Below, in pieces: positions 6,883-50,075 of a DNA stretch of 64,000 nucleotides. The notes under the pieces were generated by a model. That model had not been told where the DNA came from. It searched no databases and worked only from the letters and a program-made list of their open reading frames with translations. This DNA is from a virus (taxonomy: Duplodnaviria > Caudoviricetes): IMG/VR virus record IMGVR_UViG_3300026085_000093, positions 1-64,000 of that record; one strand, written 5' to 3'. Numbering within the stretch: position 1 is the first letter of the stretch; every line of letters starts with the position of its first letter. A program made the translations under genes and the position numbers.

Positions 6883-7289
6883 TGGCTGTAAATTTTGGAA
6901 AAGTTTTTGAAGGAACTTTAACTCCTATTAAAGATAGAGTTCTTGTTACTGATATGTATTTTGGTGAACAAAAAACAAAAAGTGGATTAATTATTACTAA
7001 TGATGATGGAAATACTAGAGGCATTTATCCTCGTTGGGGTAAAGTACATGCAAAAGGTCCAGACAACAAAGATGATTACCAAGTCGGTGATTGGATTTTA
7101 ATTGAACATGGTCGTTGGACAAGAGCCTTTAATGTTGATGAAGGTAACGGCGCAATAGAACTAAGAATGATTGATCAAGAATGTATCATTGGTTATAGTA
7201 ACGAAAAGCCAAGTGATGTTTACATCGGTGACGAATATGCGAATGGTGAATCAACAACTGTAGACCCAAGTGTGTTTGTAGGTGCTTAA
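6882..7289 (+). CDS. groES: GroES/Cpn10-like co-chaperonin
   Basis: LTPIKDRVLV...KTKSGLII...GKVHAKGP...VGDWIL pattern. Confidence 0.8.
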   Translation: MAVNFGKVFEGTLTPIKDRVLVTDMYFGEQKTKSGLIITNDDGNTRGIYPRWGKVHAKGPDNKDDYQVGDWILIEHGRWTRAFNVDEGNGAIELRMIDQECIIGYSNEKPSDVYIGDEYANGESTTVDPSVFVGA

Positions 7290-7648
7290 TGACTAATCCA
7301 TTTGCAGATATTGAACGCTTTGGCTCAGCGTGTGATCAAGAGCCTAATGAAGCAAACTACAAAATGTATCTTTCACTGATTGACGAAGAAGTTGGTGAAC
7401 TAGTAGAAGCAGTAGTAGCAGATGATCGTGTAGAACAACTAGACGCACTTATTGATATACTTGTTGTAACAATGGGTGCTATTCGTGCAGGTGGCTTTGA
7501 CGGCGAAGGTGCATGGAAAGAAGTTATGGATACAAACTTTGCTAAGATAGATCCGAATACCGGCAAAGTTCGTAAACGTGAAGATGGCAAGGTTCTAAAG
7601 CCAGAAGGATGGAAGGCTCCAGAACTTGCACAGTTTATAGGAGACTAA
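7289..7648 (+). CDS. All-alpha NTP pyrophosphohydrolase (MazG/dUTPase-like)
   Basis: EExxEL...LDALxD motifs and C-terminal KREDGKVLKPEGW. Confidence 0.75.
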   Translation: MTNPFADIERFGSACDQEPNEANYKMYLSLIDEEVGELVEAVVADDRVEQLDALIDILVVTMGAIRAGGFDGEGAWKEVMDTNFAKIDPNTGKVRKREDGKVLKPEGWKAPELAQFIGD

Positions 7649-8336: not shown

Positions 8337-8341
8337 TTTAC

Positions 8342-8370
8342 TTGACATCGTGTGTGTTTTGTGTTATGTT
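8342..8370 (+). promoter_or_regulatory. Sigma70-type early promoter
   Basis: TTGACA-N17-TATGTT with an extended -10 TG. Confidence 0.65.
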
Positions 8371-8398
8371 TAGACATAATTAACAACGAGGTTCAACT

Positions 8399-8989
8399 AT
8401 GAATTATAATGAGGATCGCAAGATCCTAGCAGATGTTGATGGTGTCTTTCTTAATTGGGAAGAAGCATTTGAACGTTGGATGTCTGCACGAGGATATGAA
8501 ATTGCAGCACCAGCACAATATAAAATGTCAGTCAAATATGGTATTGAACAACACACTGCTGATCATCTAGTAGGAATTTTCAATAACAGTGCATGGATTG
8601 GATATTTAAATCCTTTGCGTGATGCTGTAGATTGGGTACATAAACTAGTATCAGAAGGTTGGCATTTTGATTGTATCACTAGTTTGTCAGATGATCCTTA
8701 TGCTGCACGATTACGAGAAATGAACTTAGAGCATTGGTTCGGCAGAGGCGCAATGCGTAGAGTGCAATGTATAGCAACTGGTGCAGACAAAGATGAGTAT
8801 TTAAAAGCCTATGAACATAGTCATTGGTGGATTGAAGATAAGCCTGAAAATGCAATGGCAGGACTTTATGCAGGCCACAAGCCTATTTTAATACAACACG
8901 ACTATAATCTAGACTTTTTCGAAGCAGATGTGACTGTGGCTGAAAACTGGCAGCAAATTTATAATCTTATTACTAACAGCGAGGAATAA
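8399..8989 (+). CDS. HAD-family 5'(3')-deoxyribonucleotidase
   Basis: DVDGV motif I and WIEDKPEN motif. Confidence 0.75.
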   Translation: MNYNEDRKILADVDGVFLNWEEAFERWMSARGYEIAAPAQYKMSVKYGIEQHTADHLVGIFNNSAWIGYLNPLRDAVDWVHKLVSEGWHFDCITSLSDDPYAARLREMNLEHWFGRGAMRRVQCIATGADKDEYLKAYEHSHWWIEDKPENAMAGLYAGHKPILIQHDYNLDFFEADVTVAENWQQIYNLITNSEE

Positions 8990-8990
8990 A

Positions 8991-28469: not shown

Positions 28470-28576
28470 ATGGCGAAAAAAGAACTTGCAAAAATTGTGG
28501 GCATAGATGCCATTGTTATCGACCTGATTGTAAAGACTGTGTAAATGATGTTTGTACGAAGTGTAATTGTAAATGA
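28466..28576 (+). CDS. 36-aa metallothionein-like protein (not in the ORF track)
   Basis: MNGEKRTCKNCGHRCHCYRPDCKDCVNDVCTKCNCK has 9 Cys and 2 His; GGAG RBS; ATGA overlaps at both ends. Confidence 0.7.
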   Translation: MNGEKRTCKNCGHRCHCYRPDCKDCVNDVCTKCNCK

Positions 28577-29406
28577 AACTATTTGAATTTTTAAAAGAAG
28601 ATGGACGTATTGTAAAAGGAGTTAACACTACTCCTGATGTAGCAGTAGACGAAATACCAAAGCAAGCAGCAAAATTTGGTAATAAAGTAGATGTTGGCGG
28701 ACGTCCACCTACACTATCAACTAAAGTAAAAGGTAAATCTACTAACGTACTTTTTAATTTAGGACTAGCAGAAAAAACCTATAGTGCATATGAACTTGCA
28801 CTGATGGAGGGCGGGCATAGCCTACCGGAAGAACATTCATGGCCAAAAGGACACGGAAGTGAAATCGCATGGCTGGCATATAACCACAACCTAGTGGAAG
28901 AACTAGAAAACATAGGTCCTAATACTGAAATTTACGTAGACATGGACGGTGTACTTGCTGACTTTTTTGGCGATTGGGCTAAATTAATGAACAAAAAACA
29001 CTGGACTGATATCGAAGATCCTGCTAATGCAATTAACAAAATTAAAACAGTAGATGATTTTTGGTTAAATTTACCTCTTACAAAAAATGCAAAGCCTTTG
29101 CTTATGTTAATCAAGCGTGTCAAAGGCAGTTATAATATCTTAAGCAGTCCACTTGCTGATGATCCTAAAAGTATTCCGCATAAAAAGGAATGGATCAAGA
29201 AAAATTTGTCATTTTTTCCACCCAGAAGAATATTTTTAACACACGACAAAGCACAGTATGCTACAAACTCAGACGGTTCTGCAAATATTCTAATTGACGA
29301 CTATGGTGTAAACATTAACAAATGGTCCGAAGCAGGAGGTATAGGCTTCAAACACAAAGATCATAAGTTTGAAAGAACTGTGAAGAACTTAAAAGGTTTA
29401 AGATAA
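28573..29406 (+). CDS. Modular protein: targeting leader plus HAD 5'-nucleotidase (NT5C-like) domain
   Basis: Starts MKLFEFLKE; contains YVDMDGVLADF and LIDDY. Confidence 0.7.
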   Translation: MKLFEFLKEDGRIVKGVNTTPDVAVDEIPKQAAKFGNKVDVGGRPPTLSTKVKGKSTNVLFNLGLAEKTYSAYELALMEGGHSLPEEHSWPKGHGSEIAWLAYNHNLVEELENIGPNTEIYVDMDGVLADFFGDWAKLMNKKHWTDIEDPANAINKIKTVDDFWLNLPLTKNAKPLLMLIKRVKGSYNILSSPLADDPKSIPHKKEWIKKNLSFFPPRRIFLTHDKAQYATNSDGSANILIDDYGVNINKWSEAGGIGFKHKDHKFERTVKNLKGLR

Positions 29407-35442: not shown

Positions 35443-38142
35443 ATGAGTTATGTAGATGCATTCTTTGACCGTGATCAAGATATCATTCGTGTTGTAGAAC
35501 GCAAAGATGGAAAGCGACATTTCCACGAATATCAAGCAAAATATACATTTTATTATGAAGATCCTAGAGGCAAATATAAAAGTGTCTATGGCGATCCTCT
35601 TACACGTATTGTGTGTAAAAACACAAAAGACTTTAGAAAAGAAGTTGCTATTAACAAAGGCAAGAACTTGTTCGAAAGCGACATTAATCCTATCTTTCAA
35701 TGTTTAAGTGAAAATTATCTTAATCAAGATGCACCCAAACTAAACATTGCGTTTTGGGATATTGAGACGGACTTTGATCCAGAGCGTGGCTTTGCTCCAG
35801 TTGAAGATCCGTTTATGCCAATTACTGCTATTACTGTATGTTTACAATGGCTAAACAGTGCGCTAATTACACTTGCTGTTCCACCTAAAGGTATGAAGCA
35901 TGAAGATGCTGTTGCTATGTGTAAAGAACGTTGGGGAGACGAAGTAATACTTTTCACTAATGATAAGAACGGCGATGGTGAAAGACAAATGTTACAGACG
36001 TTCTTAGACTTAATTGAAGATGCAGATGTACAAAGTGGTTGGAACTCAGAAGGTTATGATGTTCCGTATACTGTTAATAGAATTAAACGTGTACTCAGCA
36101 ACGATGATACAAGACGTTTTTGTTTATGGGGACAGTTGCCCAAGAAGCGTGAATATGAAAAATTTGGTAAAACGTCAGAAACATATGACTTTGTAGGTCG
36201 TGTGCATTTAGACAGTTTGGAACTATATCGAAAATACACATATGAAGAACGTCATACATATAGACTAGATGCGATTGGTGAAATTGAAGTAGGCGAAAAC
36301 AAAACTGTTTATGAAGGCACACTTGATCAATTGTATAATCAAGACTTTGAAACATTTATTGAATATAACAGACAAGACGTTGCACTACTTGACAAACTAG
36401 ATAAGAAATTACGTTTTATTGATTTAAGCAATTCAATTGCACATGAAAATACAGTGCTTCTACAAACAACAATGGGTGCTGTTGCTGTAACAGAGCAAGG
36501 TATTATCAACGAAGCACACAACAGAGACTTACGTGTACCAAATCGGCCAAAGCGTGATGACACAGAAAGCACACAAGCCGCTGGTGCTTATGTTGCGTTT
36601 CCTAAAAAAGGTGTACACAAATGGATCGGTTCAATGGACTTGAACTCACTGTATCCAAGTGTGATTCGTGCGTTGAATATGGCTCCAGAAACTATCATAG
36701 GACAAATACGTCCTGAAATTTCTGAAGCTCGTGTTACTGAAGATATGGGGTTAAAGAAAAAGTCGTTCGCAGGTAGTTGGGAAGGACGTTTCAGCACAGA
36801 AGAATACGAAGCAGTTATGGAACAACGCAAAGATGTTGCACTAACTGTTGACTGGGAAGATGGTCGTTCAGATGTATTAAGTGCTGCCGAAATACATAAA
36901 CTTGTTTTTGATTCAAACATGCCTTGGATGCTTAGTTCAAATGGCACTATTTTTACTACAGAATTTGAAGGCGTTATTCCAGGTATCCTAAAGCGTTGGT
37001 ATGCAGAGCGTAAAGACATGCAAAAGATGCTTAAGAAAGCAAAAGACGCTAAAAATGATGCGGAAATTGAATACTGGGATAAAAGGCAACTTGTTAAAAA
37101 AATTAACTTGAACAGTTTGTATGGTGCTATTTTGAATCCAGGTTGTAGATTTTTTGATAAGCGTATCGGTCAATCAACTACACTCACAGGTCGTACTATT
37201 GTTAAGCACATGAGTGCAGAAGTAAACAAAGTTATCACAGGCAAATACGATCACGTAGGAGAAAGTGTTATCTATGGTGACACAGACTCTGTGTACTTTA
37301 GTGCATATCCGACATTACGTAAAGAAATCGAAGCAGGTAATATTCCTTGGAGTAAAGACAATGTAATTACATTATATGATCAAGTAGCAGAAGCAGCAAA
37401 TGCTACGTTCCAAGAATTTATGCTAAAGGCATTTCATTGTCCAAAGAGTCGTTCAGATGTTATTGCCGCAGGTAGAGAAATTGTTGCAGAAAGCGGATTG
37501 TATATTACAAAGAAGCGTTATGCGGCACTAGTGTATGATGTAGAAGGTTTCCGTTCAGATGTAGATGGCAAACCAGGTAAAGTAAAAGCAATGGGCTTGG
37601 ACTTGCGTAGATCAGATACTCCAGTGTTTATGCAAGAGTTCTTAAGTGAAATTCTTCTTATGGTGCTACAAGACAAACCAGAAAAAGAAATCCTAGATCG
37701 TATTACTACGTTCAGAAAAGAATTTTCACAACGTCCAGGTTGGGAAAAAGGCACACCAAAACGTGCAAACAAGATTGGACACTATCAGCGTCTTGAAGAA
37801 CGCCAAGGCAAGGCCAATATGCCAGGGCACGTTAGAGCAAGCATCAATTGGAATACGCTAAAACGCATGAACGGCGACAAGTATTCGCAAGAGATTGTAG
37901 ATGGCATGAAAGTTATTGTTTGTAAATTAAAGCAAAATCCATTAGGGTTTACTTCAGTAGCATATCCTACAGATGAACTACGTATTCCAGAATGGTTTAA
38001 GGAACTACCATTTGATGATGCAGCAATGGCAGAAACTATTATTGACAACAAACTAGATAACTTGATCGGTGTGTTGAACTATCCACTAGAAGATACAAAA
38101 CAGCACACTACATTTAACAGTTTGTTTGAATTTGGAGTATAG
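35443..38142 (+). CDS. Family B DNA polymerase (gp43-like)
   Basis: Exonuclease DIET, DLNSLYPS, KINLNSLYG and YGDTDS motifs. Confidence 0.97.
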   Translation: MSYVDAFFDRDQDIIRVVERKDGKRHFHEYQAKYTFYYEDPRGKYKSVYGDPLTRIVCKNTKDFRKEVAINKGKNLFESDINPIFQCLSENYLNQDAPKLNIAFWDIETDFDPERGFAPVEDPFMPITAITVCLQWLNSALITLAVPPKGMKHEDAVAMCKERWGDEVILFTNDKNGDGERQMLQTFLDLIEDADVQSGWNSEGYDVPYTVNRIKRVLSNDDTRRFCLWGQLPKKREYEKFGKTSETYDFVGRVHLDSLELYRKYTYEERHTYRLDAIGEIEVGENKTVYEGTLDQLYNQDFETFIEYNRQDVALLDKLDKKLRFIDLSNSIAHENTVLLQTTMGAVAVTEQGIINEAHNRDLRVPNRPKRDDTESTQAAGAYVAFPKKGVHKWIGSMDLNSLYPSVIRALNMAPETIIGQIRPEISEARVTEDMGLKKKSFAGSWEGRFSTEEYEAVMEQRKDVALTVDWEDGRSDVLSAAEIHKLVFDSNMPWMLSSNGTIFTTEFEGVIPGILKRWYAERKDMQKMLKKAKDAKNDAEIEYWDKRQLVKKINLNSLYGAILNPGCRFFDKRIGQSTTLTGRTIVKHMSAEVNKVITGKYDHVGESVIYGDTDSVYFSAYPTLRKEIEAGNIPWSKDNVITLYDQVAEAANATFQEFMLKAFHCPKSRSDVIAAGREIVAESGLYITKKRYAALVYDVEGFRSDVDGKPGKVKAMGLDLRRSDTPVFMQEFLSEILLMVLQDKPEKEILDRITTFRKEFSQRPGWEKGTPKRANKIGHYQRLEERQGKANMPGHVRASINWNTLKRMNGDKYSQEIVDGMKVIVCKLKQNPLGFTSVAYPTDELRIPEWFKELPFDDAAMAETIIDNKLDNLIGVLNYPLEDTKQHTTFNSLFEFGV

Positions 38143-38143
38143 C

Positions 38144-38422
38144 ATGAAAAGTCCTATAAATGAACTACAACAACTAATGATTATCACCAGTGAAGAATGT
38201 GGCGAATTAATCCAAGTTTGTAGCAAAATTACGAGAAAGTATAAAAACGCTGGACAAGTTAATAAAGAATGGCGGCAGAAATTATTAGAAGAACTTGGCG
38301 ATGTACAGTGTATGATTGAACTTATGATTGATCATGGAATTGTTAATCATGTTGAAATTGCTAAACGCTCTAATGTAAAGCGTGAAAAATTAAAAAAGTG
38401 GAGTACTATAATCAATGAGTGA
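38144..38422 (+). CDS. MazG-like NTP pyrophosphohydrolase
   Basis: EECGELIQ...EELGDV. Confidence 0.75.
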   Translation: MKSPINELQQLMIITSEECGELIQVCSKITRKYKNAGQVNKEWRQKLLEELGDVQCMIELMIDHGIVNHVEIAKRSNVKREKLKKWSTIINE

Positions 38423-41243: not shown

Positions 41244-41968
41244 AAGATATCTTACAAGATGTTGTGTCGCACACACATAGTCTCGGTTTTATTACAACAT
41301 TAAAAGTTGTTGCAGAACAAGAGACTAGTATCGAAAGTATGGCAGAAGATAGAAGTGTTGTACTTAGTGCAACAACTCATTCGCCTGTGTCGGAATTTGT
41401 AGGTACATTTGGTATGCCAGATTTAAATAAACTTGCATATCATTTGAAGAACCCAGAATACCAGGACAAAGCAAAAATTGATGTGGTACAGGAAGAACGC
41501 AACGGAGAAATTATTCCAACACATATTCATTTTGAAAATGAAGTTGGCGACTTCCAAAACGACTATCGCTTTATGAATAAAGCAATTATCGAAGAAAAAT
41601 TAAAAAGTGTTAAATTCAAAGGTAGCACATGGGATGTAGAATTTACTCCAAGTGTTGCAGCAATTGCACGTATGAAACTAATGGCTGGTGCTCATTCAGA
41701 AGAACCAGTATTCCAGGTCAAAACAGAAGATGGAAATCTAAACTTTTACTTCGGTGACTTGAATACACACGCAGGTAAGTTTACATTCCAACACGATGTA
41801 GGTGGAACCTTGCAACACACTTGGGCATGGCCAGTTGCGCAAACTATTTCTATTTTAGGACTAGATGGCGATAAGAAAATTAGCATCACAGATCAAGGTG
41901 CTATGATGATTACAGTAGACAGTGGTATGGCCAAGTATGACTATATCCTGCCAGCACAAAGTAAATAA
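41240..41968 (+). CDS. Probable DNA polymerase sliding clamp (gp45/PCNA-like)
   Basis: 242 aa, two-domain beta/alpha pattern ending YDYILPA; PolB and RFC are in the window. Confidence 0.6.
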   Translation: MKDILQDVVSHTHSLGFITTLKVVAEQETSIESMAEDRSVVLSATTHSPVSEFVGTFGMPDLNKLAYHLKNPEYQDKAKIDVVQEERNGEIIPTHIHFENEVGDFQNDYRFMNKAIIEEKLKSVKFKGSTWDVEFTPSVAAIARMKLMAGAHSEEPVFQVKTEDGNLNFYFGDLNTHAGKFTFQHDVGGTLQHTWAWPVAQTISILGLDGDKKISITDQGAMMITVDSGMAKYDYILPAQSK

Positions 41969-43425
41969 TGAATACAAATTTAACTGCAACACAAAATGAC
42001 TATGCTGTTTTTCTGCCTGCGTTGAGTGGCTTTTATGCTACTTACGTGGGCAAACAGCGTTTTGAAAACTATGTTGATCCTGCTAGAATACCAAGCAATT
42101 TAAATAATGGCGTTGAAAGTCTTAACTATCTAAATAAAGATCAAGGACAGTTTCAATATAAGTGGACATTGTACTCAGCAGGACATGCTGACTTAGATAC
42201 TACAAAACATGCACCTAAGGAAGATATGGTGCGTAACAGAGATAGAGCAAACACTTGGCTACTTGGTGACTCAGGTGGCTTCCAGATTGGTAAGGGTGTT
42301 TGGGAAGGTGACTGGAAAGATCCAAACTGTCCAAAAGCACAAAAGAAACGTGATGGTGTATTGCGTTGGATGGATGCTTATATGGATTATGGTATGATAC
42401 TTGATATTCCCGCCTGGGTTGCACGTTCACCTGCAGGTGCAAAAGCAACAGGCATTAGTACATATGCAGAAGCAGTTAAAGCAACACGTATTAATAATGA
42501 TTATTGGATGAAGCATCGTACAGGTGCCTGTAAGTTTTTGAACGTACTACAAGGCGAAAATCATGCAGATGCAGATGACTGGTACGATCAAATGAAAGAC
42601 TACTGTGATCCAAAAAAATATGAAGATCATTTTAACGGATGGTCAATGGGTGGACAAAATATGTGCGATGTACACCTTGCTCTTAAACGTGTTGTTTCAC
42701 TACGTTTTGACGGATTGCTTGAAAAGGGCAAACATGATTTTATGCACTTCTTAGGAACTTCAAAACTTGAGTGGGCTACACTACTAACAGACATTCAACG
42801 AGCAGTGCGCAAATATCATAACGAAAACTTTACTATCACATTTGATTGTGCTAGTCCTTTCCTTGCAACTGCTAATGGACAAATCTACTGTGAACTGGAA
42901 ACAGAAGACAGAAGTAAATGGGTATATCGAATGGTGCCAAGCATTGACGATAAAGCACTAGCAAACGATACTACTCCGTTTAGTCAAGCATTTGTAAGAG
43001 AAGGAAAACACCCTAGTTTCTTAGATTCACCAATAACAACAGGATTACAAGCCAAAGATATTTGTATCTATGGTCCGGGTGATCTAAATAAAATAGGCAA
43101 AGAAGGCAAGACCTCATGGGACAGTTTTTCATATGCTGTTATGATGGGTCATAATGTATGGATGCACATTAACGCAGTGCAGGAAGCAAACCGCCAATAT
43201 GATGCAGGTATTATTCCTAATATGTTAATACAAGAAAAGTTTGATAGAATTGCGTTTAGAGATATTGTTGATGCAATTTTTGAAACCGATAACAGACAAA
43301 AAGCCGAATCTCTCATTTTAGAATTTTCTAAATATTGGGACAGTATTATAGGTACTAGAGGCAATACAGGAAAGCGTATTGTAAATGCACAAACGCAATT
43401 CAACAATCTATTTGAGGAACTATAA
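41968..43425 (+). CDS. dpdA: tRNA-guanine transglycosylase-like protein (DpdA-like DNA 7-deazaguanine transglycosylase)
   Basis: TGT motifs DSGGFQ, LDIP, VLQG, GG, HFLG and FDC; located next to folE/queE. Confidence 0.75.
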   Translation: MNTNLTATQNDYAVFLPALSGFYATYVGKQRFENYVDPARIPSNLNNGVESLNYLNKDQGQFQYKWTLYSAGHADLDTTKHAPKEDMVRNRDRANTWLLGDSGGFQIGKGVWEGDWKDPNCPKAQKKRDGVLRWMDAYMDYGMILDIPAWVARSPAGAKATGISTYAEAVKATRINNDYWMKHRTGACKFLNVLQGENHADADDWYDQMKDYCDPKKYEDHFNGWSMGGQNMCDVHLALKRVVSLRFDGLLEKGKHDFMHFLGTSKLEWATLLTDIQRAVRKYHNENFTITFDCASPFLATANGQIYCELETEDRSKWVYRMVPSIDDKALANDTTPFSQAFVREGKHPSFLDSPITTGLQAKDICIYGPGDLNKIGKEGKTSWDSFSYAVMMGHNVWMHINAVQEANRQYDAGIIPNMLIQEKFDRIAFRDIVDAIFETDNRQKAESLILEFSKYWDSIIGTRGNTGKRIVNAQTQFNNLFEEL

Positions 43426-43767: not shown

Positions 43768-44068
43768 AGAAACAGTAGCAGCCCTAAAGGGTATACCTAC
43801 AAAAGATGAATTAGTTGCATTGTTAGAAAAGCAAGTCGTTGAAGTAACTTTTAATAAATTAGACGGCACTGAAAGAGTAATGCCTTGTACTCTTATGCCT
43901 TCATTCTTTCCAGATCCAAAGAAAGATACAACACAAAAACACGAAAAAAATGTTGTTGTGTGGGCAATTGAATCAAACGCTTTTAGAAGTTTTAGGTACG
44001 ATCGTGTTAAAAAAGTAGAAGTTATTCAATATGGCAACGGCGGCAACGAATGGGAGGCTCAATATTAA
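43754..44068 (+). CDS. Sm-like/WYL_2 (DUF2693-like) protein
   Basis: VTFNKLDGTERVMPCTL...FRSFRYD. Confidence 0.65.
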   Translation: MAKVEETVAALKGIPTKDELVALLEKQVVEVTFNKLDGTERVMPCTLMPSFFPDPKKDTTQKHEKNVVVWAIESNAFRSFRYDRVKKVEVIQYGNGGNEWEAQY

Positions 44069-44622
44069 TGAATAGAGATTATTCTACAGGTTCTGCAGAT
44101 GATGCTATTTACTTTATCGGTAACGAAGTAGAACGCACACCTGCATTTGGCTTAAAAACTTTGTTTATTACAGGCAAACAGCCTTTAGAAGAAATTAAAG
44201 GCATTGCTAATGTGAATAAAATCAAGCATTTGTTTTTTGGTTCTAATCATAGTTTTAAACCCGAGACTAGTGAAGATTGGGACTGGTGGGAATCGATGAT
44301 CAAGGATTGTCTAGATGAAGGTTACTATTGCAGTTTAGATATTCCTATTGCACTTGCAGAAGAATTTCTCGAAAGTGGTTTGACAGAATACGAAAATTTT
44401 ATTCCACAACTAAGAGTTCCTATTCCATATATTAAACTATGGAATTATAACACTATGTTAAAAATCGATGATAAAGATTTTAAGGCAACTAATCCAGGTG
44501 TTTGGTGTCATAGTTTACACGACTTAATGGATAGGAAAAAATTTACTGACTGGTCTAATTATGCATCAGATGAAATTATTGAGTTGACAACTATCGAAAA
44601 TGGTACTATAGTAAATGAGTAA
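44068..44622 (+). CDS. Uncharacterised protein inside the deazaguanine locus
   Basis: 184 aa, directly upstream of the T-fold gene. Confidence 0.65.
   Translation: MNRDYSTGSADDAIYFIGNEVERTPAFGLKTLFITGKQPLEEIKGIANVNKIKHLFFGSNHSFKPETSEDWDWWESMIKDCLDEGYYCSLDIPIALAEEFLESGLTEYENFIPQLRVPIPYIKLWNYNTMLKIDDKDFKATNPGVWCHSLHDLMDRKKFTDWSNYASDEIIELTTIENGTIVNE
44584..44612 (+). promoter_or_regulatory. Sigma70-type promoter
   Basis: TTGACA-N17-TATAGT; if real, the T-fold gene starts at a downstream ATG (44654 or 44666). Confidence 0.5.
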
Positions 44623-45076
44623 CAACAAAGAACCCGAGCGCTATTATGATTGGATGCTTTGGAAAATGCGACAGGAAGATAATAAATTGGCAAATAGTTT
44701 AGAAAATGCAAAACGTAGTATTTGGGTAACATTCCGTAAAGAAGGTATCCATTTGTATCCTGCGGCAAAAGACGACCCGGCACTTGCAACAGGTGGTTGG
44801 GATGATGTAAGTTTCTTAGGTGTAGCACATAGACACATCTTTCATTTCAAAGTACAAATTCAAGTAACACACAATGATAGAGATATTGAATTTATTCAGT
44901 TCAAGCGTTGGCTCGAAAGTCTTTATGATGATAAGGTTATTGAACTTAATCACAAGTCTTGCGAAATGATCGCAGACGACTTGTATATCCAGATTAACAA
45001 CAAATATCCCGGCCGCTTTGTTGTTATTGATGTCGCCGAAGATGGCGAAAATGGCTGTCAAATTGTTTACCCATAG
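44615..45076 (+). CDS. QueD-paralog T-fold enzyme, DpdL-like (putative CDG decarboxylase)
   Basis: LGVAHRHIF fits LxxxHRHxF; also IEF..FK, SCE and EDGENG. Confidence 0.7.
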   Translation: MSNNKEPERYYDWMLWKMRQEDNKLANSLENAKRSIWVTFRKEGIHLYPAAKDDPALATGGWDDVSFLGVAHRHIFHFKVQIQVTHNDRDIEFIQFKRWLESLYDDKVIELNHKSCEMIADDLYIQINNKYPGRFVVIDVAEDGENGCQIVYP

Positions 45077-45094: not shown

Positions 45095-45307
45095 ATGACT
45101 ATTACATTCAATCGTGACGCTTACAATAAAGTGTTTAATGATTTGGATAAATTCCGCGACTACTGTCGTTTCGAAGGAAAGGTCTTTAACGAGGCTGATT
45201 TATATAAAAAGGATTCGCCTATTTGGCAGTCTTATATTAAACATCAAAATTATATTCGTGCTAAGTCACGTAACGCAAGCCGAAGTTTTAACAATCGGAG
45301 AAACTAA
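45095..45307 (+). CDS. Small hypothetical protein
   Basis: AAGG RBS; 70 aa. Confidence 0.55.
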   Translation: MTITFNRDAYNKVFNDLDKFRDYCRFEGKVFNEADLYKKDSPIWQSYIKHQNYIRAKSRNASRSFNNRRN

Positions 45308-46356
45308 TGACAATTTACATTGTAGATATCGAAGCAGTTGATACACGCTACACAAAGCAATGGAAAGACTATCTTCCGAAGCAACTACAACGATCTACAA
45401 ACGAAAATGTAAAAGTCATTAGTGGTGGGGAAACGCCTCAGGCAACAACGCCTGGGGCATTTCTCAATTTTGGTGGAACTAATGTTTATAAGTCCAAACA
45501 ACTAGAAATTATAGGCGAAATGTTTTGCAAAGGGCAAATTCAAAGTGGAGATTATTTTTTATATACCGATGCTTGGAACCCTACTGTTATTCAGTTACGT
45601 TATATGGCAGAACTCTTGGACGTTGATGTTAGCATCGGCGGGCTTTGGCATGCTGGTAGTTATGACCCTCATGACTTTCTTGGCAGGTTAATTGGAGATA
45701 AACCGTGGGTACGTCATGCAGAACAGGCAATGTATGAATGTTACGATGATAACTTTTTTGCAAGTAATTTTCATATTGAATTATTTGCACAAAGTTTAGA
45801 CATTGATCCAGATAAAACACATCGTGTAGGCTGGCCTATGGAATATTTACGTAGTAGTTTAGATCAATACAAAGGTATGGAGAAGCGTAATCTTATTCTT
45901 TTCCCACATCGTCTTGCCCCAGAAAAACAAGTTGATGTATTCCATGATTTGAAACAGCAACTTCCGCAATATGAATTTGTTGTATGTCAAGAGCAAATGC
46001 TTTCTAAAAATGAATATCACAACTTGTTAGGAGAAGCAAAACTTGTGTTTAGTGCTAACTTACAAGAAACACTTGGTATTAGTTGGTACGAAGGCGCACT
46101 TGTTGATGCTATTCCTATGGTTCCTGATCGCCTTTCTTACAGTGAAATGGCATTGCCTGAATTTAAATATCCTAGCCAATGGACTGAAGATTATAGTGCA
46201 TATAGAAAACATAGAGGAGATATTGCTGCCAAGATTGTTGACTATATGGAAAACTACAATGACTATCTTATAAGTTTAGAAAAACAGCGTATTAGACTTA
46301 ACAAAGAATTTTTTGACGGAACAGAACTATACAGGAATATTGCAGATGGGCAATGA
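45307..46356 (+). CDS. GT-B fold glycosyltransferase (GT4-like)
   Basis: PHRLAPEKQ and the ETLGISWYE EX7E motif. Confidence 0.8.
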   Translation: MTIYIVDIEAVDTRYTKQWKDYLPKQLQRSTNENVKVISGGETPQATTPGAFLNFGGTNVYKSKQLEIIGEMFCKGQIQSGDYFLYTDAWNPTVIQLRYMAELLDVDVSIGGLWHAGSYDPHDFLGRLIGDKPWVRHAEQAMYECYDDNFFASNFHIELFAQSLDIDPDKTHRVGWPMEYLRSSLDQYKGMEKRNLILFPHRLAPEKQVDVFHDLKQQLPQYEFVVCQEQMLSKNEYHNLLGEAKLVFSANLQETLGISWYEGALVDAIPMVPDRLSYSEMALPEFKYPSQWTEDYSAYRKHRGDIAAKIVDYMENYNDYLISLEKQRIRLNKEFFDGTELYRNIADGQ

Positions 46357-46666
46357 TGATGATTATATTTTTAGTGTAAGTACAGACCACACTTATTCAG
46401 TTAGCATAAGTGATATCACAACAACAACTATAGACACTAGTACATTTGATGATCTAATTACATTAGATGGAGATAACGGTATTACACTTATCATGGACGA
46501 TCCTGTTGATTTTGTAGATCAAATGCCTTCATTAGATAAAATAAAAGATATGTGTCAACATTATCCTGGCTTAAAAAAAGCTTTTAAAAACTTTGAATCA
46601 GTTTACAAAATGGTTCATCAAGACTATAAAGGTAATCACGAACCAAAAATAGAGGTACCATTTTAA
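46346..46666 (+). CDS. Hypothetical protein
   Basis: Acidic Thr-rich N-terminus and CQHYPGL module. Confidence 0.5.
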   Translation: MGNDDDYIFSVSTDHTYSVSISDITTTTIDTSTFDDLITLDGDNGITLIMDDPVDFVDQMPSLDKIKDMCQHYPGLKKAFKNFESVYKMVHQDYKGNHEPKIEVPF

Positions 46667-46893
46667 TGCAACATCCAATTGAAGAATGGATCAGACGTAT
46701 CAATGCAATGAAAGATTTATGCATACAAGCACATAGAGTGCGTAACGAATTTGCAGAAATCAGTTATAAACAATATGACGAATCTACTTGTAAGCACTTA
46801 CTAGAACAAGTTCAATCAATGGCAGCAGGTATTGCAAACGAAAAAATAACTGATATAAAAACTGAAATGGATGAGTGGAAAAAGAATGATTAA
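46666..46893 (+). CDS. Hypothetical protein
   Basis: TAATG-coupled ORF. Confidence 0.5.
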   Translation: MQHPIEEWIRRINAMKDLCIQAHRVRNEFAEISYKQYDESTCKHLLEQVQSMAAGIANEKITDIKTEMDEWKKND

Positions 46894-47467
46894 GAAACAT
46901 TATTATTCGTGGCAAGACGTAGAAAAGATGTGTGCAAGTATTGTCATGCAGATGTATAAAGATAATTGGCGTCCTGATTACATTGTAGGTATTACACGAG
47001 GTGGTAACATTCCTGCTACTATTATTAGTAACATGACAGGCATCCGTTGTGAAGCACTTAAAGTAAGTTTGCGTGATAACGGTAATGGCGAAAGCGAAAG
47101 CAACTGTTGGATGGCAGAAGATGCATTTGGATATGAAGATATGAAACTTCAAACCCATAACCAAGACATTCAAGCAAGTGCAAATGTTGATATTATCACT
47201 ATAGAAAACAAAAGTAATATCCTTATTGTAGACGATATTAACGACACTGGTGCAACATTTAACTGGATTGTTAATGACTGGCAAGCCAGTTGTTTACCTG
47301 ATCATGATCGATGGAGCAGAGTTTGGGACGAAAACGTTCGTTTCGCAACATTAACTGAAAACTTATCAAGTGCCTGCGGATTAGTGCGTTATTATGCACA
47401 CGAAATTAATAAAGCAGAAGAAAACGTTTGGTTAGTTTATCCTTGGGAGAATGTAAATGAGTACTGA
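46886..47467 (+). CDS. Type I phosphoribosyltransferase (Gpt/Hpt-like)
   Basis: VGITRGG, PRPP loop LIVDDINDTGAT and C-terminal WLVYPWE. Confidence 0.88.
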   Translation: MIKKHYYSWQDVEKMCASIVMQMYKDNWRPDYIVGITRGGNIPATIISNMTGIRCEALKVSLRDNGNGESESNCWMAEDAFGYEDMKLQTHNQDIQASANVDIITIENKSNILIVDDINDTGATFNWIVNDWQASCLPDHDRWSRVWDENVRFATLTENLSSACGLVRYYAHEINKAEENVWLVYPWENVNEY

Positions 47468-47708
47468 ATATAAAGAATATAGATGCAAGTATAAAGCAGA
47501 ATGGCCTGTAGACAAATTTGGCAGACTTGGTGGAATGTATAGCATGGCAGATCTTCCAGTTAAGGCATATGTCGAACTAGAAAGAGAAGGTCTTTTAGTA
47601 TCACAAGATAGCAAAAAAGAACTGTACGAAATTAAAGATGCTGAAAAACAATTTATCAAACGTGTAGTTCCTTTTAGTGATGTAACAGATATTGAAGAAA
47701 TATCTTGA
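47457..47708 (+). CDS. Hypothetical protein
   Basis: 83-aa ORF. Confidence 0.5.
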   Translation: MSTEYKEYRCKYKAEWPVDKFGRLGGMYSMADLPVKAYVELEREGLLVSQDSKKELYEIKDAEKQFIKRVVPFSDVTDIEEIS

Positions 47709-47733
47709 CAAAAACCTAAATACATGGTATATT
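47705..47733 (+). promoter_or_regulatory. Sigma70 promoter of folE with an overlapping TAAATA
   Basis: TTGACA-N17-TATATT. Confidence 0.7.
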
Positions 47734-47772
47734 AAATTAATAGACATCCCCGTCTATAACTCGGAGAAATAA

Positions 47773-48456
47773 ATGAGCAAATCAAAACAAATTACAGCCC
47801 GCTTGCAAGATGCAGGCATTCGCTATTGGGCCGGCGACAACATTTCAGAAGTCCTACAAGCAGGCGACAAAGAAGAACTTATTGAAGATGCTACAGTAGC
47901 ATTTGAAGGTGTACTAGATGCACTACTAATCGATCGACATAACGATCCTAATTCACAAGGTACTGCAAGGCGTCTTGCTAAGATGTACTTTAATGAAATT
48001 ATGGCAGGACGATATGATCCTATTCCAAGTGCTACAGCATTTCCAAACCATGTAGATGAAGGTTACAAAGGTATGTTAGTTGTAAGAAGCGAACTTAAAA
48101 GTATGTGTTCGCATCATCATCAACCAGTAAACGGTGTAGCATATATTGGTATTATTGCCGCTGATACACTTATCGGACTTTCAAAGTATACACGTATTGC
48201 ACAATGGTGTGCTAGACGTGGTACACTACAAGAAGAACTTAATAATGTTATTGCAAATGAAATACAGAAAGCAACAGGAAGTCCTAACGTAGGTGTGTAC
48301 ATTCAAGCAACACATGGTTGTTGTGAAAATAGAGGTATTGGTGCACACAGCAGTCTTACACAAACAACTGTACTACGTGGTGCATTCTATGATGATCCTA
48401 GTACTAAGAAAGAGTTTATGGATAATATAAAACTACAACAGGAATTTGCTTGCTAA
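47773..48456 (+). CDS. folE: GTP cyclohydrolase I
   Basis: SMCSHHHQP, GLSKY.RI, LQEEL and HGCCENRG. Confidence 0.95.
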   Translation: MSKSKQITARLQDAGIRYWAGDNISEVLQAGDKEELIEDATVAFEGVLDALLIDRHNDPNSQGTARRLAKMYFNEIMAGRYDPIPSATAFPNHVDEGYKGMLVVRSELKSMCSHHHQPVNGVAYIGIIAADTLIGLSKYTRIAQWCARRGTLQEELNNVIANEIQKATGSPNVGVYIQATHGCCENRGIGAHSSLTQTTVLRGAFYDDPSTKKEFMDNIKLQQEFAC

Positions 48457-48562: not shown

Positions 48563-49201
48563 ATGTCAAGGTTAATTGCATTTGGTTGTAGTTTGACATA
48601 CGGCGATAATTTAAAAGATATATGGCCGCACAATGAAGAGTCGAGCAAACTTGCTTGGCCTTCTGTTGTTTCTAAACTATTAAATTTAGAATGCATTAAC
48701 AAAGGAGTAAGTGGTTATTCAAATAAAGAAATACTTAACGATTTGTTGACATTTGAATACCAAAAAGGTGACACAGTTATTTGTTTATGGACATTTCATC
48801 AGAGACATGCAATACTTACTGAAGAATTATCAACACCTGCAATTTCAATTAAACCGTGGGAAATGAAAAACAATAAAGCAATTAAGTCATATTTTAAAAA
48901 TCTTTACACAGATTATGATTCTAATTGGACAACTAACTTATACATGAGAGTAGCGAAATCTTACTTTGACGAGCATAACATAATTAATTACCATGCTAAT
49001 GCAAAACCATGGATCTTCCAACAGGAAAAATGGAATAACATAAATTTTATTCCAGTAGAAGACATTGATACAATTCGAAACAAAGAAAGCAGTGATTTGG
49101 CAAAAGACAAACGTCATCCAGGTTACAGAGTGCATAAAGAGTTTGGTACAAATATTGCAAATTATATAAAGGAACAGACACATGAAATTACGTTACAGTG
49201 A
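48563..49201 (+). CDS. SGNH/GDSL-like protein
   Basis: FGCSLTYG, NKGVSGYSN and DKRHPG. Confidence 0.55.
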   Translation: MSRLIAFGCSLTYGDNLKDIWPHNEESSKLAWPSVVSKLLNLECINKGVSGYSNKEILNDLLTFEYQKGDTVICLWTFHQRHAILTEELSTPAISIKPWEMKNNKAIKSYFKNLYTDYDSNWTTNLYMRVAKSYFDEHNIINYHANAKPWIFQQEKWNNINFIPVEDIDTIRNKESSDLAKDKRHPGYRVHKEFGTNIANYIKEQTHEITLQ

Positions 49202-50075
49202 AGCATTTTATAGTGTACAAGGTGAGGGTAAATACGTAGGAGTACCTAGCGTATTTTTACGTACATTTGGTTGCAACTTTCGTTGTATGAATTTTGGATT
49301 ACCTAAGGACAAAGATCGTTGGGAGCAACACGCAGAAGGCAATCGGTACAATCCAGAAGTAAAGGCACTACTTGACGCAGGCGTACACGAAACTACAGAA
49401 AAATTTGAAGATTTACCTATTATTCACACAGGCTGTGATACATATGCTAGTATCTATCCAGAGTTTAAACACTTTAACAAACTTGCAGAAGTAGACGAAG
49501 TTGTAGATCATTTGATTAGTTTATTGCCAGAAGGCAAATGGACACAAGACAATGGACAAGATATTCATTTGATTATGACAGGTGGTGAACCATTACTTGC
49601 ATGGCAACGACTTTACGTAGAGTTGTTTGAACATCCGAAAATGAAAGATTTAAAAAATGTCACGTTTGAAACAAACACTACACAATTTTTACATGATGAT
49701 TTGTTCGATTACATCAACAATAATGACAGAATTGAATGGACATTTAGTTGTTCTCCTAAACTTTCCGTCAGCGGAGAAACTTGGGAGTCAGCTATCAAAC
49801 CTGATGTCCTGCGGGATTACGCTCGTTGTGACAGCAGTTCTGTTTATCTTAAATTTGTTGTTGCTGATATGGATGATGTTGATGAAGTTAGTAGAGCAGT
49901 TAGTGAATATCGTGCAGCGGGTGTGGAATGCCCTGTCTATCTTATGCCGCTTGGCGGTCGCTCGGAAGGGTACAACATCACGGTACAAGAGGTGGCGAAG
50001 CTCTGTATGGAACGAGGCTGGAGGTTCACTCCGAGACTCCACATTAGCCTATTCGGAAATGCCTGGGGAACATAA
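49182..50075 (+). CDS. queE: 7-carboxy-7-deazaguanine synthase (radical SAM)
   Basis: FYSVQGEG, FLRTFGCNFRC...CDT, TGGEP, CSPK and PRLH. Confidence 0.9.
   Translation: MKLRYSEAFYSVQGEGKYVGVPSVFLRTFGCNFRCMNFGLPKDKDRWEQHAEGNRYNPEVKALLDAGVHETTEKFEDLPIIHTGCDTYASIYPEFKHFNKLAEVDEVVDHLISLLPEGKWTQDNGQDIHLIMTGGEPLLAWQRLYVELFEHPKMKDLKNVTFETNTTQFLHDDLFDYINNNDRIEWTFSCSPKLSVSGETWESAIKPDVLRDYARCDSSSVYLKFVVADMDDVDEVSRAVSEYRAAGVECPVYLMPLGGRSEGYNITVQEVAKLCMERGWRFTPRLHISLFGNAWGT

What the first reader, a model, noticed from the sequence alone, without database searches (positions are those of the whole stretch)
46886..48456. Purine PRTase beside folE suggests a nucleotide-pool route to a non-canonical G
Seen: an intact Gpt/Hpt-like PRTase lies two genes upstream of folE inside the deazaguanine locus. 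Two MazG-like pyrophosphatases (7289-7648 and 38144-38422, the second directly after polB) and two HAD nucleotidases (8399, 28573) are also in the window. Inference, by analogy with 2-aminoadenine phages: the PRTase could couple the free 7-deazaguanine base to PRPP, giving a deaza-dGTP for PolB, while MazG/HAD enzymes deplete dGTP. That would allow very high or complete G substitution rather than post-replicative base exchange.
Basis: inference. Interest (0 to 1): 0.75.

Follow-up and report, generated by a model that had tools for sequence, protein, structure and literature searches.

The report
Guanine-salvage-type enzyme beside phage deazaguanine genes
An intact guanine-salvage-type enzyme really does sit in the operon that lets this marine giant phage replace DNA guanine with 7-deazaguanine, but comparison with many other phages suggests it recycles the discarded guanine back into the pathway rather than feeding a modified nucleotide to the polymerase.

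Summary
Window 46871-47467 encodes an intact type I purine phosphoribosyltransferase (PRTase) of the Gpt/HGXPRT kind. It lies one small ORF upstream of folE, in a locus that also holds a TGT-fold DpdA-like gene, a DpdL-like gene and queE.

The link to the pathway is real and general:
- Among 182 related loci with enough flank, 135 of 138 PRTases with intact catalytic residues lie within 10 kb of folE/queE, against 5 of 44 catalytically altered copies.
- Gpt-like PRTases also sit next to, or fused to, FolE in unrelated cultured phages that make different deazaguanines (immuto_2-6A, Brevundimonas MaInes, BUCT-ZZ01, PA5oct, a Stenotrophomonas phage).

The nucleotide-pool reading is not favoured, for four reasons:
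- A catalytically intact DpdA-like enzyme is always present.
- The PRTase is altered and displaced in sister phages, and undetected in ACP17 and the fully substituted CP220.
- It tracks FolE, the GTP consumer, whatever the final base is.
- The MazG-like gene after polB is not conserved.

Most likely (about 0.55) it recycles guanine released by DpdA into GMP, then GTP, for FolE. A TubE-like deazapurine PRTase remains possible (about 0.2). Substrate cannot be read from the sequence.

This scan has already noted the same pairing in at least 36 other genomes. I found no paper that discusses it.

The parts
46871..47467 (+). Gpt/HGXPRT-type purine phosphoribosyltransferase (198 aa; alternative start at 46886) with a long flexible loop II (residues 69-109)
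   Evidence: PF00156 E 2.8e-10; phrog_8995; fold matches to HGXPRT/XGPRT; catalytic residues conserved
47773..48456 (+). GTP cyclohydrolase I (FolE), the first enzyme of 7-deazaguanine synthesis and the consumer of GTP
   Evidence: PF01227 E 1.3e-37; NF006824 E 3.1e-38
47457..47708 (+). 83-aa ORF between the PRTase and FolE, function unknown, poorly conserved
   Evidence: No family hit; found in 6 of 83 related loci
46313..46893 (+). Two small ORFs (117 aa and 75 aa) whose ends overlap each other and the PRTase start
   Evidence: ORF list; conserved order [117][74][PRTase] in relatives; no family hits
44615..45076 (+). DpdL-like QueD paralogue (LGVAHRHIF), the proposed CDG decarboxylase
   Evidence: 33% identity to phiST gp040, which is DpdL; motif; homologues in 29 phage records
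45307..46356 (+). GT-B (GT1/GT4-like) glycosyltransferase that travels with DpdL
   Evidence: Atlas feature search gives viral glycosyltransferase family 1 clusters; 39% identity to the ACP17 gene next to DpdL; a weak PF00534 hit in the PA5oct homologue
44050..44622 (+). Conserved 190-aa protein of unknown function in the module
   Evidence: Found in 52 of 83 related loci; 32% identity to the ACP17 gene beside FolE; no Pfam hit
41968..43425 (+). DpdA-like DNA-guanine transglycosylase candidate (TGT fold)
   Evidence: AlphaFold pLDDT 89.5; all 50 best PDB matches are tRNA-guanine transglycosylases; D101-S-G-G-x-Q106, D146 and D293 are invariant in 15 homologues; not seen by Pfam or by PDB sequence searches
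49182..50075 (+). QueE-like radical SAM CDG synthase
   Evidence: phrog_2076 E 7.5e-50; TIGR03963/TIGR04322 partial hits
44584..44612 (+). Near-consensus sigma-70 promoter (TTGACA-17-TATAGT) in front of the DpdL-like gene. It would transcribe DpdL, the GT, the small ORFs and the PRTase.
   Evidence: 11 of 12 matches. A consensus match only; the total number of sites is not above the shuffles.
47705..47733 (+). Near-consensus sigma-70 promoter with an extended -10 in front of folE
   Evidence: 11 of 12, TG before the second hexamer
35443..38142 (+). Family B DNA polymerase
   Evidence: PF00136 E 7.8e-37, PF03104 E 7.4e-16
38126..38422 (+). Weak MazG-like all-alpha NTP pyrophosphohydrolase candidate after polB; not conserved in relatives
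   Evidence: PF03819 E 0.004, below the cut-off; found in 3 of 31 related loci that include polB
7289..7648 (+). MazG/PRA-PH-type NTP pyrophosphohydrolase
   Evidence: PF01503 E 1.1e-9; PF03819 E 0.0033
28573..29406 (+). Protein with a C-terminal NT5C (HAD) 5'-deoxynucleotidase domain
   Evidence: PF06941 E 1.8e-8
8399..8989 (+). Weak NT5C/HAD nucleotidase candidate
   Evidence: PF06941 E 1.4e-4, below the cut-off

Best explanation
The gene encodes an active Gpt/HGXPRT-type 6-oxopurine phosphoribosyltransferase that is an accessory part of a DpdA-based, post-replicative 7-deazaguanine DNA-modification module.

Proposed loop: the DpdA-like transglycosylase swaps guanine in phage DNA for the deazaguanine base and releases free guanine. 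The PRTase joins that guanine (and guanine from degraded host nucleic acid) to PRPP to give GMP. Host kinases raise GMP to GTP. FolE, encoded one small gene downstream, then uses the GTP to start the next round of deazaguanine synthesis (FolE, a CPH4 synthase step, QueE, the DpdL-like enzyme). Removing free guanine would also stop it competing with the deazaguanine base at DpdA.

Shown here: the fold, the intact catalytic residues, the operon position and the conserved coupling to FolE. Inferred: the substrate (guanine) and the loop itself.
For: 1. The fold and motifs are those of XGPRT/HGXPRT enzymes, with RGG, R68, DD, D-T-G-x-T, the stacking Trp and the PWE motif all present.
2. In 182 related loci with enough flank, 135 of 138 catalytically canonical PRTases have folE/queE within 10 kb, against 5 of 44 variant ones.
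3. The partner that stays constant across unrelated phages is FolE, whatever base is made. In immuto_2-6A (fdPreQ1) the order is PRTase then FolE. In Brevundimonas MaInes, which has QueC and QueD, it is FolE then XPRT. BUCT-ZZ01 has QueE, PRTase, a 118-aa ORF, QueD, FolE. PA5oct has a locus syntenic with this window. In a Stenotrophomonas phage the first ~117 residues of a 297-aa FolE are PRTase-like, inside a QueE-QueC-QueD-FolE-DpdA operon.
4. The MaInes enzyme is 35% identical to E. coli Gpt.
5. A TGT-fold DpdA-like gene with invariant catalytic motifs is present in every record tested.
6. The PRTase is dispensable. The complete sister phage G005 and near-complete G003 keep PolB-clamp-DpdA-DpdL-GT-FolE-QueE-FEN with no PRTase there. 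L124 keeps the locus with R43G, D121N and D125N. CP220 and ACP17 have none detectable.
7. Close relatives add a PRPP synthetase next to the clamp gene.
Against: No substrate assay exists, and specificity cannot be read from the sequence.
- The Lys that binds O6 in XGPRT-type enzymes (K115 in E. coli Gpt; 'KP' in 1vdm, 4z1o, 4trb) is Asn164 in this clade, so guanine specificity is not assured.
- TubE, in the same structural subfamily, uses CDG.
- phiST and immuto_2-6A, both fully substituted, combine a PRTase with a MazG-like gene and a kinase-like gene in or near the cluster. That set also fits a nucleotide-level route.
- The loop needs GMP and GDP kinases that the phage does not encode.
- Counts of loci are not phylogenetically independent.
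Confidence: 0.55

Rival explanations
1. One reading: the PRTase is a TubE-like deazapurine PRTase. It couples CDG or 7-deazaguanine to PRPP. The ribonucleotide is decarboxylated where needed (by DpdL), phosphorylated, reduced by ribonucleotide reductase and used by PolB as 7-deaza-dGTP. MazG/HAD enzymes lower dGTP, which would give very high or complete pre-replicative substitution.
For: - TubE is a proven CDG-specific PRTase, and its authors aligned it with S. solfataricus 4Z1O, which is also the nearest structure to this protein.
- The tubercidin gene set (FolE, QueD, QueE, PRTase, decarboxylase) parallels FolE, QueE, PRTase, DpdL here.
- QueC is absent.
- Asn164 replaces the usual O6-binding Lys.
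- phiST and immuto_2-6A (100% replacement; PMC10516641) carry a PRTase plus MazG-like and kinase-like genes.
- A modified dGTP route was once proposed for Campylobacter phages (PMC6884629), and DpdA3 has never been reconstituted.
- Complete relatives encode a ribonucleotide reductase.
Against: - A DpdA-like enzyme with intact catalytic motifs is always present.
- The PRTase is lost, degenerate or moved in sister phages that keep the rest of the locus.
- CP220, with 100% dADG, has no detectable PRTase.
- The same pairing, even a fusion to FolE, occurs in QueC-plus, preQ0-type operons beside DpdA. DpdA was shown to be essential for the modification in phage CAjan (PMC6884629).
- A product-specific PRTase would have had to change substrate in each lineage, whereas guanine is common to all of them.
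- The MazG-like gene after polB is not conserved, and its substrate is unknown.
- No phage guanylate kinase was found.
- Inference: a ribonucleotide route would also load 7-deaza-GTP into RNA and GTP-dependent enzymes.
Confidence: 0.2
2. It is a generic purine-salvage auxiliary gene. The PRTase simply boosts the GMP/IMP supply for replication in purine-poor water, and its place beside folE reflects clustering of replication and nucleotide genes, not a specific loop with DpdA.
For: - The locus lies in the replication module, between PolB/clamp and FEN.
- Several carriers are aquatic phages.
- In phiST the PRTase lies 19 kb from the cluster, beside RNase H and the reductase.
- L154-L156 have canonical PRTases with no folE nearby.
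Against: - Adjacency to folE recurs in unrelated genome architectures and reaches gene fusion.
- Integrity of the catalytic motifs tracks the folE linkage.
- tblastn with this PRTase and with three other Gpt-like queries found it in phage isolates almost only where deazaguanine genes are present.
Confidence: 0.12
3. The protein works mainly as a purine- or PRPP-binding regulator or partner protein rather than as a catalyst, as its many catalytically altered relatives may do.
For: - 35 of 75 cluster representatives at 50% identity have lost catalytic residues in several branches, yet keep intact ORFs and the clade-specific motifs.
- The forms fused to FolE lack the catalytic loop II.
Against: The copy in this window keeps every catalytic residue. 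These residues are invariant among the FolE-linked members, which argues for selection on catalysis.
Confidence: 0.06

Closest known systems
Xanthine-guanine / hypoxanthine-guanine-xanthine PRTases (E. coli Gpt, PDB 1A95/1NUL; S. solfataricus HGXPRT, 4Z1O/4ZFN; P. horikoshii, 1VDM)
   Same: Same type I PRTase fold. Shares the RGG pyrophosphate loop, the DD-x-x-D-T-G-x-T PRPP loop, the stacking Trp and the C-terminal W-x-x-x-P-W-E motif.
   Different: - Only 16-21% identical.
- Has a loop II about 40 residues longer, with the clade-specific ESNxWMAEDAFGY motif.
- Has an inserted DWQxSCxP...WxxVW segment.
- Asn164 stands where these enzymes have the O6-binding Lys.
- The clade is essentially confined to phages: only one fragment was found in 185,579 species genomes.
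TubE (and ToyH), the CDG/preQ0 PRTases of tubercidin and toyocamycin biosynthesis in Streptomyces (PMC6112128)
   Same: A purine-type PRTase encoded with FolE, QueD and QueE genes. TubE's authors chose 4Z1O as its structural relative, which is also the nearest structure here.
   Different: - Those clusters lack any nucleic-acid transglycosylase and carry a UbiD decarboxylase, a GMP reductase and a Nudix or HAD enzyme.
- Here a DpdA-like enzyme is present and none of those partners was found among the window genes scanned.
- TubE's sequence could not be obtained, so direct similarity was not measured.
DpdL/DpdA-type 7-deazaguanine (dDG) systems of Cellulophaga phage phiST and relatives (Cui, Hutinet et al. 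2023, PMC10516641)
   Same: FolE, QueE, a DpdL-like protein with LxxxHRHxF, a remote DpdA, no QueC, and a PRTase elsewhere in the phiST genome.
   Different: - That paper does not mention the PRTase.
- Here it lies inside the operon.
- This phage has no canonical QueD.
- Its DpdA-like protein is 485 aa against 259 aa for the phiST DpdA3 candidate (gp042).
- A GT-B glycosyltransferase and a 190-aa protein are part of the module here.
PRTase-FolE neighbours and fusions in other cultured phages (immuto_2-6A, Brevundimonas MaInes, PA5oct, Stenotrophomonas vB_SM_ytsc_ply2008005c, Vibrio VpKK5)
   Same: A Gpt-like PRTase next to or fused with FolE in a DpdA-containing deazaguanine cluster.
   Different: - Those PRTases are short (131-161 aa), and some lack loop II.
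- They are only 20-21% identical to this one.
- Several belong to QueC-plus pathways.
Pre-replicative base-replacement systems, for example the 2-aminoadenine (dZ) system of phage S-2L (PurZ, MazZ, DatZ)
   Same: The window contains MazG-like pyrophosphohydrolases and a polymerase, which prompted the analogy.
   Different: - No conserved nucleotidase dedicated to the canonical nucleotide was shown.
- The candidate enzyme works at the ribonucleotide level.
- A post-replicative base-exchange enzyme is present.

Membership tests
Type I PRTase, XGPRT/HGXPRT-like 6-oxopurine subfamily | PRPP-binding loop: hydrophobic strand, two acidic residues, then D-[TS]-G-x-T | tested here: met
   ILIVDDINDTGAT at residues 117-129; D121, D122, D125, G127 and T129 are invariant in 12 canonical homologues
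Type I PRTase, XGPRT/HGXPRT-like 6-oxopurine subfamily | Pyrophosphate loop R-G-G, and a purine-stacking aromatic residue followed by the P-W-E/D motif | tested here: met
   R43-G44-G45, W187 and P191-W192-E193 align with E. coli Gpt SRGG and W134...P-W-D
Type I PRTase, XGPRT/HGXPRT-like 6-oxopurine subfamily | Overall fold | tested here: met
   Model pLDDT 84. The best 50 PDB matches are HGXPRT, XGPRT, HGPRT or close relatives, with probability 1.00.
Type I PRTase, XGPRT/HGXPRT-like 6-oxopurine subfamily | Lys that hydrogen-bonds the 6-oxo group (K115 of E. coli Gpt; 'KP' in 1VDM and 4Z1O). The role of this residue is from my own knowledge of the family. | tested here: not met
   Asn164 aligns with that Lys, both in HMMER alignments to PDB chains and in MAFFT alignments. 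phiST, immuto and MaInes keep the Lys.
Type I PRTase, XGPRT/HGXPRT-like 6-oxopurine subfamily | Catalysis of guanine/xanthine/hypoxanthine + PRPP to the nucleoside monophosphate | not testable with these tools
   Needs an enzyme assay
TubE/ToyH deazapurine PRTases | Uses CDG or preQ0 with PRPP | not testable with these tools
   Needs an enzyme assay. The TubE activity is documented in PMC6112128.
TubE/ToyH deazapurine PRTases | Closer in sequence to TubE/ToyH than to salvage Gpt/Hpt enzymes | not tested
   No TubE or ToyH sequence could be reached with the tools. The only link is the shared nearest structure, 4Z1O.
TubE/ToyH deazapurine PRTases | Gene cluster lacks a nucleic-acid insertion enzyme and carries a UbiD decarboxylase, GMP reductase and Nudix/HAD tailoring genes | tested here: not met
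   A TGT-fold DpdA-like gene lies 3.4 kb upstream. No UbiD or GMP-reductase family appeared among the window proteins scanned. Not every ORF of the genome was scanned.
Phage DpdA/DpdL-type 7-deazaguanine DNA-modification module (Cui et al. 2023) | A DpdA-family (TGT-fold) transglycosylase with its catalytic Asp residues | tested here: met
   Fold search returned only TGTs. D101-S-G-G-x-Q106, D146 and D293 are invariant. Activity on DNA was not tested.
Phage DpdA/DpdL-type 7-deazaguanine DNA-modification module (Cui et al. 2023) | FolE, QueD and QueE present; QueC absent; DpdL with LxxxHRHxF | tested here: inconclusive
   FolE, QueE and the DpdL motif are present. QueC gives only a 15-bit hit elsewhere in the genome. 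No canonical QueD was found: PF01242 gives nothing in the 236-kb record and there is no CxxxHGH motif in the window. The record is estimated to be 66% complete.
Phage DpdA/DpdL-type 7-deazaguanine DNA-modification module (Cui et al. 2023) | A 7-deazaguanine base in virion DNA | not testable with these tools
   The phage is uncultured; needs LC-MS of its DNA
Pre-replicative base-substitution systems (dZ-type logic) | A nucleotidase or pyrophosphatase that removes the canonical dNTP and is conserved with the module | tested here: not met
   The MazG-like gene after polB is found in 3 of 31 related loci that include polB. No homologue of the 7289-7648 MazG was found at the syntenic place in the complete relative G005. 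Substrates are unknown.
Pre-replicative base-substitution systems (dZ-type logic) | No post-replicative exchange enzyme is needed | tested here: not met
   A DpdA-like gene was present in all five further records tested and in the loci with enough upstream flank

The most novel reading that the evidence does not exclude
The PRTase (perhaps aided by Asn164 in place of the O6-binding Lys) is a phage counterpart of TubE. It would turn CDG or 7-deazaguanine into a nucleotide, so that part or all of the 7-deazaguanine enters DNA through the polymerase. The DpdA-like enzyme would then only mop up residual guanine. This would overturn the current view that all phage 7-deazaguanines are post-replicative.
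Probability: 0.2. Interest if true: 0.85.

Novelty: new variant of a known kind. Interest (0 to 1): 0.5.

Why it matters
Phage 7-deazaguanine genomes are a current topic in anti-restriction biology. How some phages replace every G is unsettled. A modified-dGTP route was suggested in 2019. A purely post-replicative route was asserted in 2023, but the DpdA3 enzymes involved have never been reconstituted.

A Gpt-like PRTase that repeatedly sits beside, or is fused to, the first pathway enzyme is not discussed in the papers I could search. If it recycles guanine, it halves the purine cost of the modification and removes a competitor of the base-exchange step. That would be a new accessory logic for DNA hypermodification, and a plausible reason why heterologous reconstitutions gave low yields. 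If instead it activates the deazaguanine base, it would be the missing enzyme of a pre-replicative route.

Either answer is within reach, because cultured phages (PA5oct, phiST, immuto_2-6A, MaInes) carry the same pairing.

Tried and rejected
- Megablast of the locus against 50,697 phage records found nothing.
- Pfam TGT (PF01702) does not detect the DpdA-like gene, here or even in immuto_2-6A where DpdA is annotated. PDB sequence searches with the protein and with a 15-sequence profile also found nothing. Only the predicted fold identified it.
- I first took 48563-49201 for QueD because of its position, as in phiST. It has an SGNH/GDSL-like N-terminus, is found in only 11 of 83 related loci and matches no QueD, so I rejected that.
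- I first concluded that the PRTase occurs only in QueC-less DpdL phages and that PA5oct lacks one. That was an artefact of tblastn sensitivity. Queries with E. coli Gpt and the immuto PRTase found it in PA5oct, immuto, MaInes and the FolE fusions.
- I tried to read specificity from the catalytic Asp125 and the Lys/Asn164 position. The archaeal adenine PRT 4TRB keeps both D-T-G and K-P, and a Sphingobium plasmid homologue with no folE nearby also has Asn. Neither residue therefore discriminates.
- A scan of 185,579 species genomes found only one 22-residue fragment. The diverse alignment A1 had no stretch conserved enough for a pattern scan.
- I could not obtain a TubE or ToyH sequence. The supplementary figure is an image.
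- The neighbourhood of the altered 'RGGDA' copy in the complete relative G005 was uninformative: a helicase, a zinc-finger protein, a radical SAM enzyme and a desaturase.
Full report
**What is there.** The window is the first 64 kb of a 236-kb IMG/VR virus record, estimated 66% complete. Its genes run almost entirely on the + strand. It matches Pfam PF00156 above the cut-off (E 2.8e-10) and phrog_8995. One 83-aa ORF separates it from FolE (47773-48456, PF01227 E 1.3e-37). QueE follows at 49182-50075.

Upstream lie three further parts of the locus:
- a DpdL-like QueD paralogue at 44615-45076, with LGVAHRHIF and 33% identity to phiST DpdL;
- a GT-B glycosyltransferase at 45307-46356;
- a 485-aa protein at 41968-43425 that Pfam and PDB sequence searches do not recognise.

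I folded that 485-aa protein with 15 homologues (pLDDT 89.5). All 50 best PDB matches were tRNA-guanine transglycosylases, and D-S-G-G-x-Q, L-D-I-P and F-D-C are invariant. The deazaguanine locus and the PRTase's place in it are therefore confirmed.

- 7289-7648 is a clear MazG/PRA-PH protein.
- 28573-29406 has an NT5C/HAD domain.
- 38126-38422 and 8399-8989 are only weak matches.

Near-consensus sigma-70 promoters stand before the DpdL-like gene (44584) and before folE (47705). This places the PRTase in the DpdL-GT operon, directly ahead of the folE operon. These are consensus matches only.

**What kind of PRTase.** The AlphaFold model (pLDDT 84) is closest to S. solfataricus HGXPRT, P. horikoshii purine PRT, and E. 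coli, Yersinia and H. pylori XGPRT. Profile alignments map the following residues:
- R43-G-G to the pyrophosphate loop;
- D121-D122 and D125-T-G-x-T129 to the PRPP loop;
- W187 and P191-W-E to the purine-stacking and C-terminal motif.

Two things differ from these enzymes. Loop II is about 40 residues longer, disordered in the model, and carries a clade-specific ESNxWMAEDAFGY motif. Asn164 stands where XGPRT-type enzymes have the Lys that binds the 6-oxo group.

I could not turn either the conserved Asp125 or Asn164 into a substrate call. The archaeal adenine PRT 4TRB keeps both D-T-G and K-P. A Sphingobium plasmid homologue with no deazaguanine genes nearby also has Asn.

**How the family behaves.** The protein has more than 8,000 close relatives in marine metagenomes and 1,368 clusters at 50% identity, but essentially none in 185,579 species genomes. 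I collected 194 loci and scored the catalytic residues and the neighbours.

Among PRTases that keep R43, DD, D125, G127 and W187, 135 of 138 with enough flank have folE or queE within 10 kb, usually with the DpdL-like, DpdA-like, GT, clamp and FEN genes. Among variants, only 5 of 44 do. These counts are not phylogenetically independent, because a few clades dominate.

Three observations show that the PRTase is an accessory rather than the core of the system:
1. In the complete 342.6-kb phage G005, and in G003, the syntenic block PolB-clamp-DpdA-DpdL-GT-FolE-QueE-FEN has no PRTase between the GT and FolE. The only close copy lies about 170 kb away and reads DDINRGGDA, with D125R and R68 lost.
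2. L124 keeps the full locus, but its PRTase has R43G, D121N and D125N.
3. All five further records I tested that have PRTase plus FolE also carry the DpdA-like gene.

**Cultured phages.** Cui et al. 2023 (PMC10516641) showed 100% dDG in phiST and 100% fdPreQ1 in immuto_2-6A. They proposed DpdL as the decarboxylase and argued that all 7-deazaguanines are post-replicative, because every carrier has a DpdA. They could not reconstitute DpdL/DpdA3, and they never mention a PRTase. Hutinet et al. 2019 had allowed for a modified dGTP route.

| Phage | Arrangement found |
|---|---|
| phiST | PRTase 19 kb from the cluster, beside RNase H and the ribonucleotide reductase |
| BUCT-ZZ01 | QueE, PRTase, 118-aa ORF, QueD, FolE |
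| immuto_2-6A | PRTase, FolE, a small DUF4494 ORF, MazG-like, a small ORF, DpdA, then further on a kinase-like gene and QueF |
| Brevundimonas MaInes (has QueC and QueD) | dNMP kinase, FolE, XPRT |
| PA5oct | PolB, a 540-aa gene, a GT, DpdL, PRTase, QueE, RNase H (syntenic with this window) |
| Stenotrophomonas ytsc_ply2008005c | FolE is 297 aa inside QueE-QueC-QueD-FolE-DpdA-clamp-PolA |

In the Stenotrophomonas phage the first 117 residues of FolE match the immuto PRTase (tblastn E 2e-6), although Pfam does not call them. The same tblastn search matched within or beside FolE-annotated genes in Vibrio VpKK5-like, Sphingomonas and Pseudomonas phages; I did not inspect those.

CP220 (100% dADG) and ACP17 (which carries DpdL) have no PF00156 match, and their FolE frames are too short for a fusion. 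A stand-alone stripped-down PRTase could still have escaped Pfam in those two.

**Reading.** The constant partner of the PRTase is FolE, the enzyme that consumes GTP. This holds whether the final base is DG, fdPreQ1 or a preQ0-type base. A DpdA is always present, and the PRTase can be lost.

The substrate common to all these systems is the guanine that DpdA expels. I therefore favour a guanine-recycling loop (about 0.55): guanine plus PRPP gives GMP, then GTP, then FolE. As a side benefit, this loop removes a competitor of the base-exchange step. Relatives that add a PRPP synthetase next to the clamp gene fit this reading, although they would fit any PRTase role.

- TubE, a proven CDG-specific PRTase, belongs to the same structural neighbourhood.
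- The phage gene set parallels the tubercidin pathway.
- Asn164 is unusual.
- Two fully substituted phages combine a PRTase with MazG-like and kinase-like genes.

Against it stand the points above, together with the non-conserved MazG-like gene after polB (3 of 31 loci) and the absence of a phage guanylate kinase. There is also the inference that a ribonucleotide route would put 7-deaza-GTP into RNA and GTP-dependent enzymes.

A generic salvage role (about 0.12) and a mainly non-catalytic role (about 0.06) are less likely for this copy, because its catalytic residues are under clear conservation.

**Novelty.** My searches found no paper that links a PRTase to phage DpdA systems. The library is incomplete. 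The scan itself has noted the pairing in at least 36 other genomes, with follow-ups that also lean towards guanine recycling.

I checked two of those claims:
- The FolE fusion and the occurrence in QueC-plus operons hold up.
- The claim that all three fully substituted phages carry the PRTase holds for phiST and immuto_2-6A, but not for CP220 at Pfam sensitivity.

The finding is a new accessory variant of a known system. It is of moderate interest and is directly testable in cultured phages.

Noticed in passing
window 45307-46356 and 44050-44622; L206 (ACP17) 6213-8991; L218 (PA5oct) 3666-4727; L201, L203: A GT-B (GT1/GT4-like) glycosyltransferase and a 190-aa unknown protein travel with the DpdL-like gene in this phage, in complete relatives, in Acidovorax phage ACP17 (39% and 32% identity) and, for the glycosyltransferase, in PA5oct. 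They may be missing parts of the DpdL pathway, or may point to a sugar-bearing base.
   Followed up: partly
window 38907-41243: A cytidylyltransferase, a phosphomannomutase-like protein and an NAD-dependent epimerase/dehydratase lie between polB and the clamp-like gene, so sugar-nucleotide genes sit next to the DNA-modification locus.
   Followed up: no
whole record G000; window 44615-45076: No canonical QueD was found: PF01242 finds nothing in the 236-kb record and the window has no CxxxHGH motif. FolE and QueE are present. The only T-fold candidate is the DpdL-like protein. Either the host supplies CPH4 synthase, or the gene lies in the missing third of the genome, or 'DpdL' does more than decarboxylate.
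   Followed up: partly
loci L159-L200; G005:C1:242815-243315; proteins P0128, P0221, P0177 and others: About half of the clusters of this phage PRTase clade have lost catalytic residues in several separate branches, yet keep intact ORFs and the clade-specific motifs. One large clade reads DDINRGGDA, with Arg in place of the catalytic Asp, and sits far from the deazaguanine locus. Their function is unknown.
   Followed up: partly
L005 1417-2350 (also L006, L007): Close relatives carry a PRPP synthetase, called as two ORFs (208 aa and 109 aa), just upstream of the clamp-like and DpdA-like genes. This record has none.
   Followed up: no
L217 4971-5864 (Stenotrophomonas phage vB_SM_ytsc_ply2008005c gp47): The gene annotated as GTP cyclohydrolase I is 297 aa. 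Its FolE domain starts at residue 118, and the N-terminal part resembles a loop-less Gpt-like PRTase that Pfam does not call. tblastn found similar matches within or beside FolE-annotated genes in Vibrio VpKK5-like, Sphingomonas MMDA13 and Pseudomonas Baskent_P4_1/PSASB_03 phages.
   Followed up: partly
window 48563-49201 and 50541-51776: An SGNH/GDSL-like hydrolase (N-terminal FGCSLTYG) lies between folE and queE in this phage but in few relatives. A twitch-domain radical SAM protein (NF033640, E 9.7e-82) follows the locus.
   Followed up: no
window 41187, 43658, 44584, 47705, 51773 (+ strand): Five near-perfect TTGACA-17-TATAxT promoters sit in intergenic spots directly before gene blocks, which suggests transcription of this region by the host sigma-70 polymerase.
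   Followed up: no
window 7650-8336; L091 6309-6983: The phage encodes a Bax1-I/TMBIM-family membrane protein (PF01027, E 2.6e-53). In a distant relative the same family lies directly upstream of the degenerate PRTase.
   Followed up: no
window 5914-6471: A 185-aa ORF matches only a short part of the DNA polymerase III alpha NTPase domain (PF07733) and the corresponding part of the phiST polymerase gene, in a phage that otherwise uses a family B polymerase.
   Followed up: no
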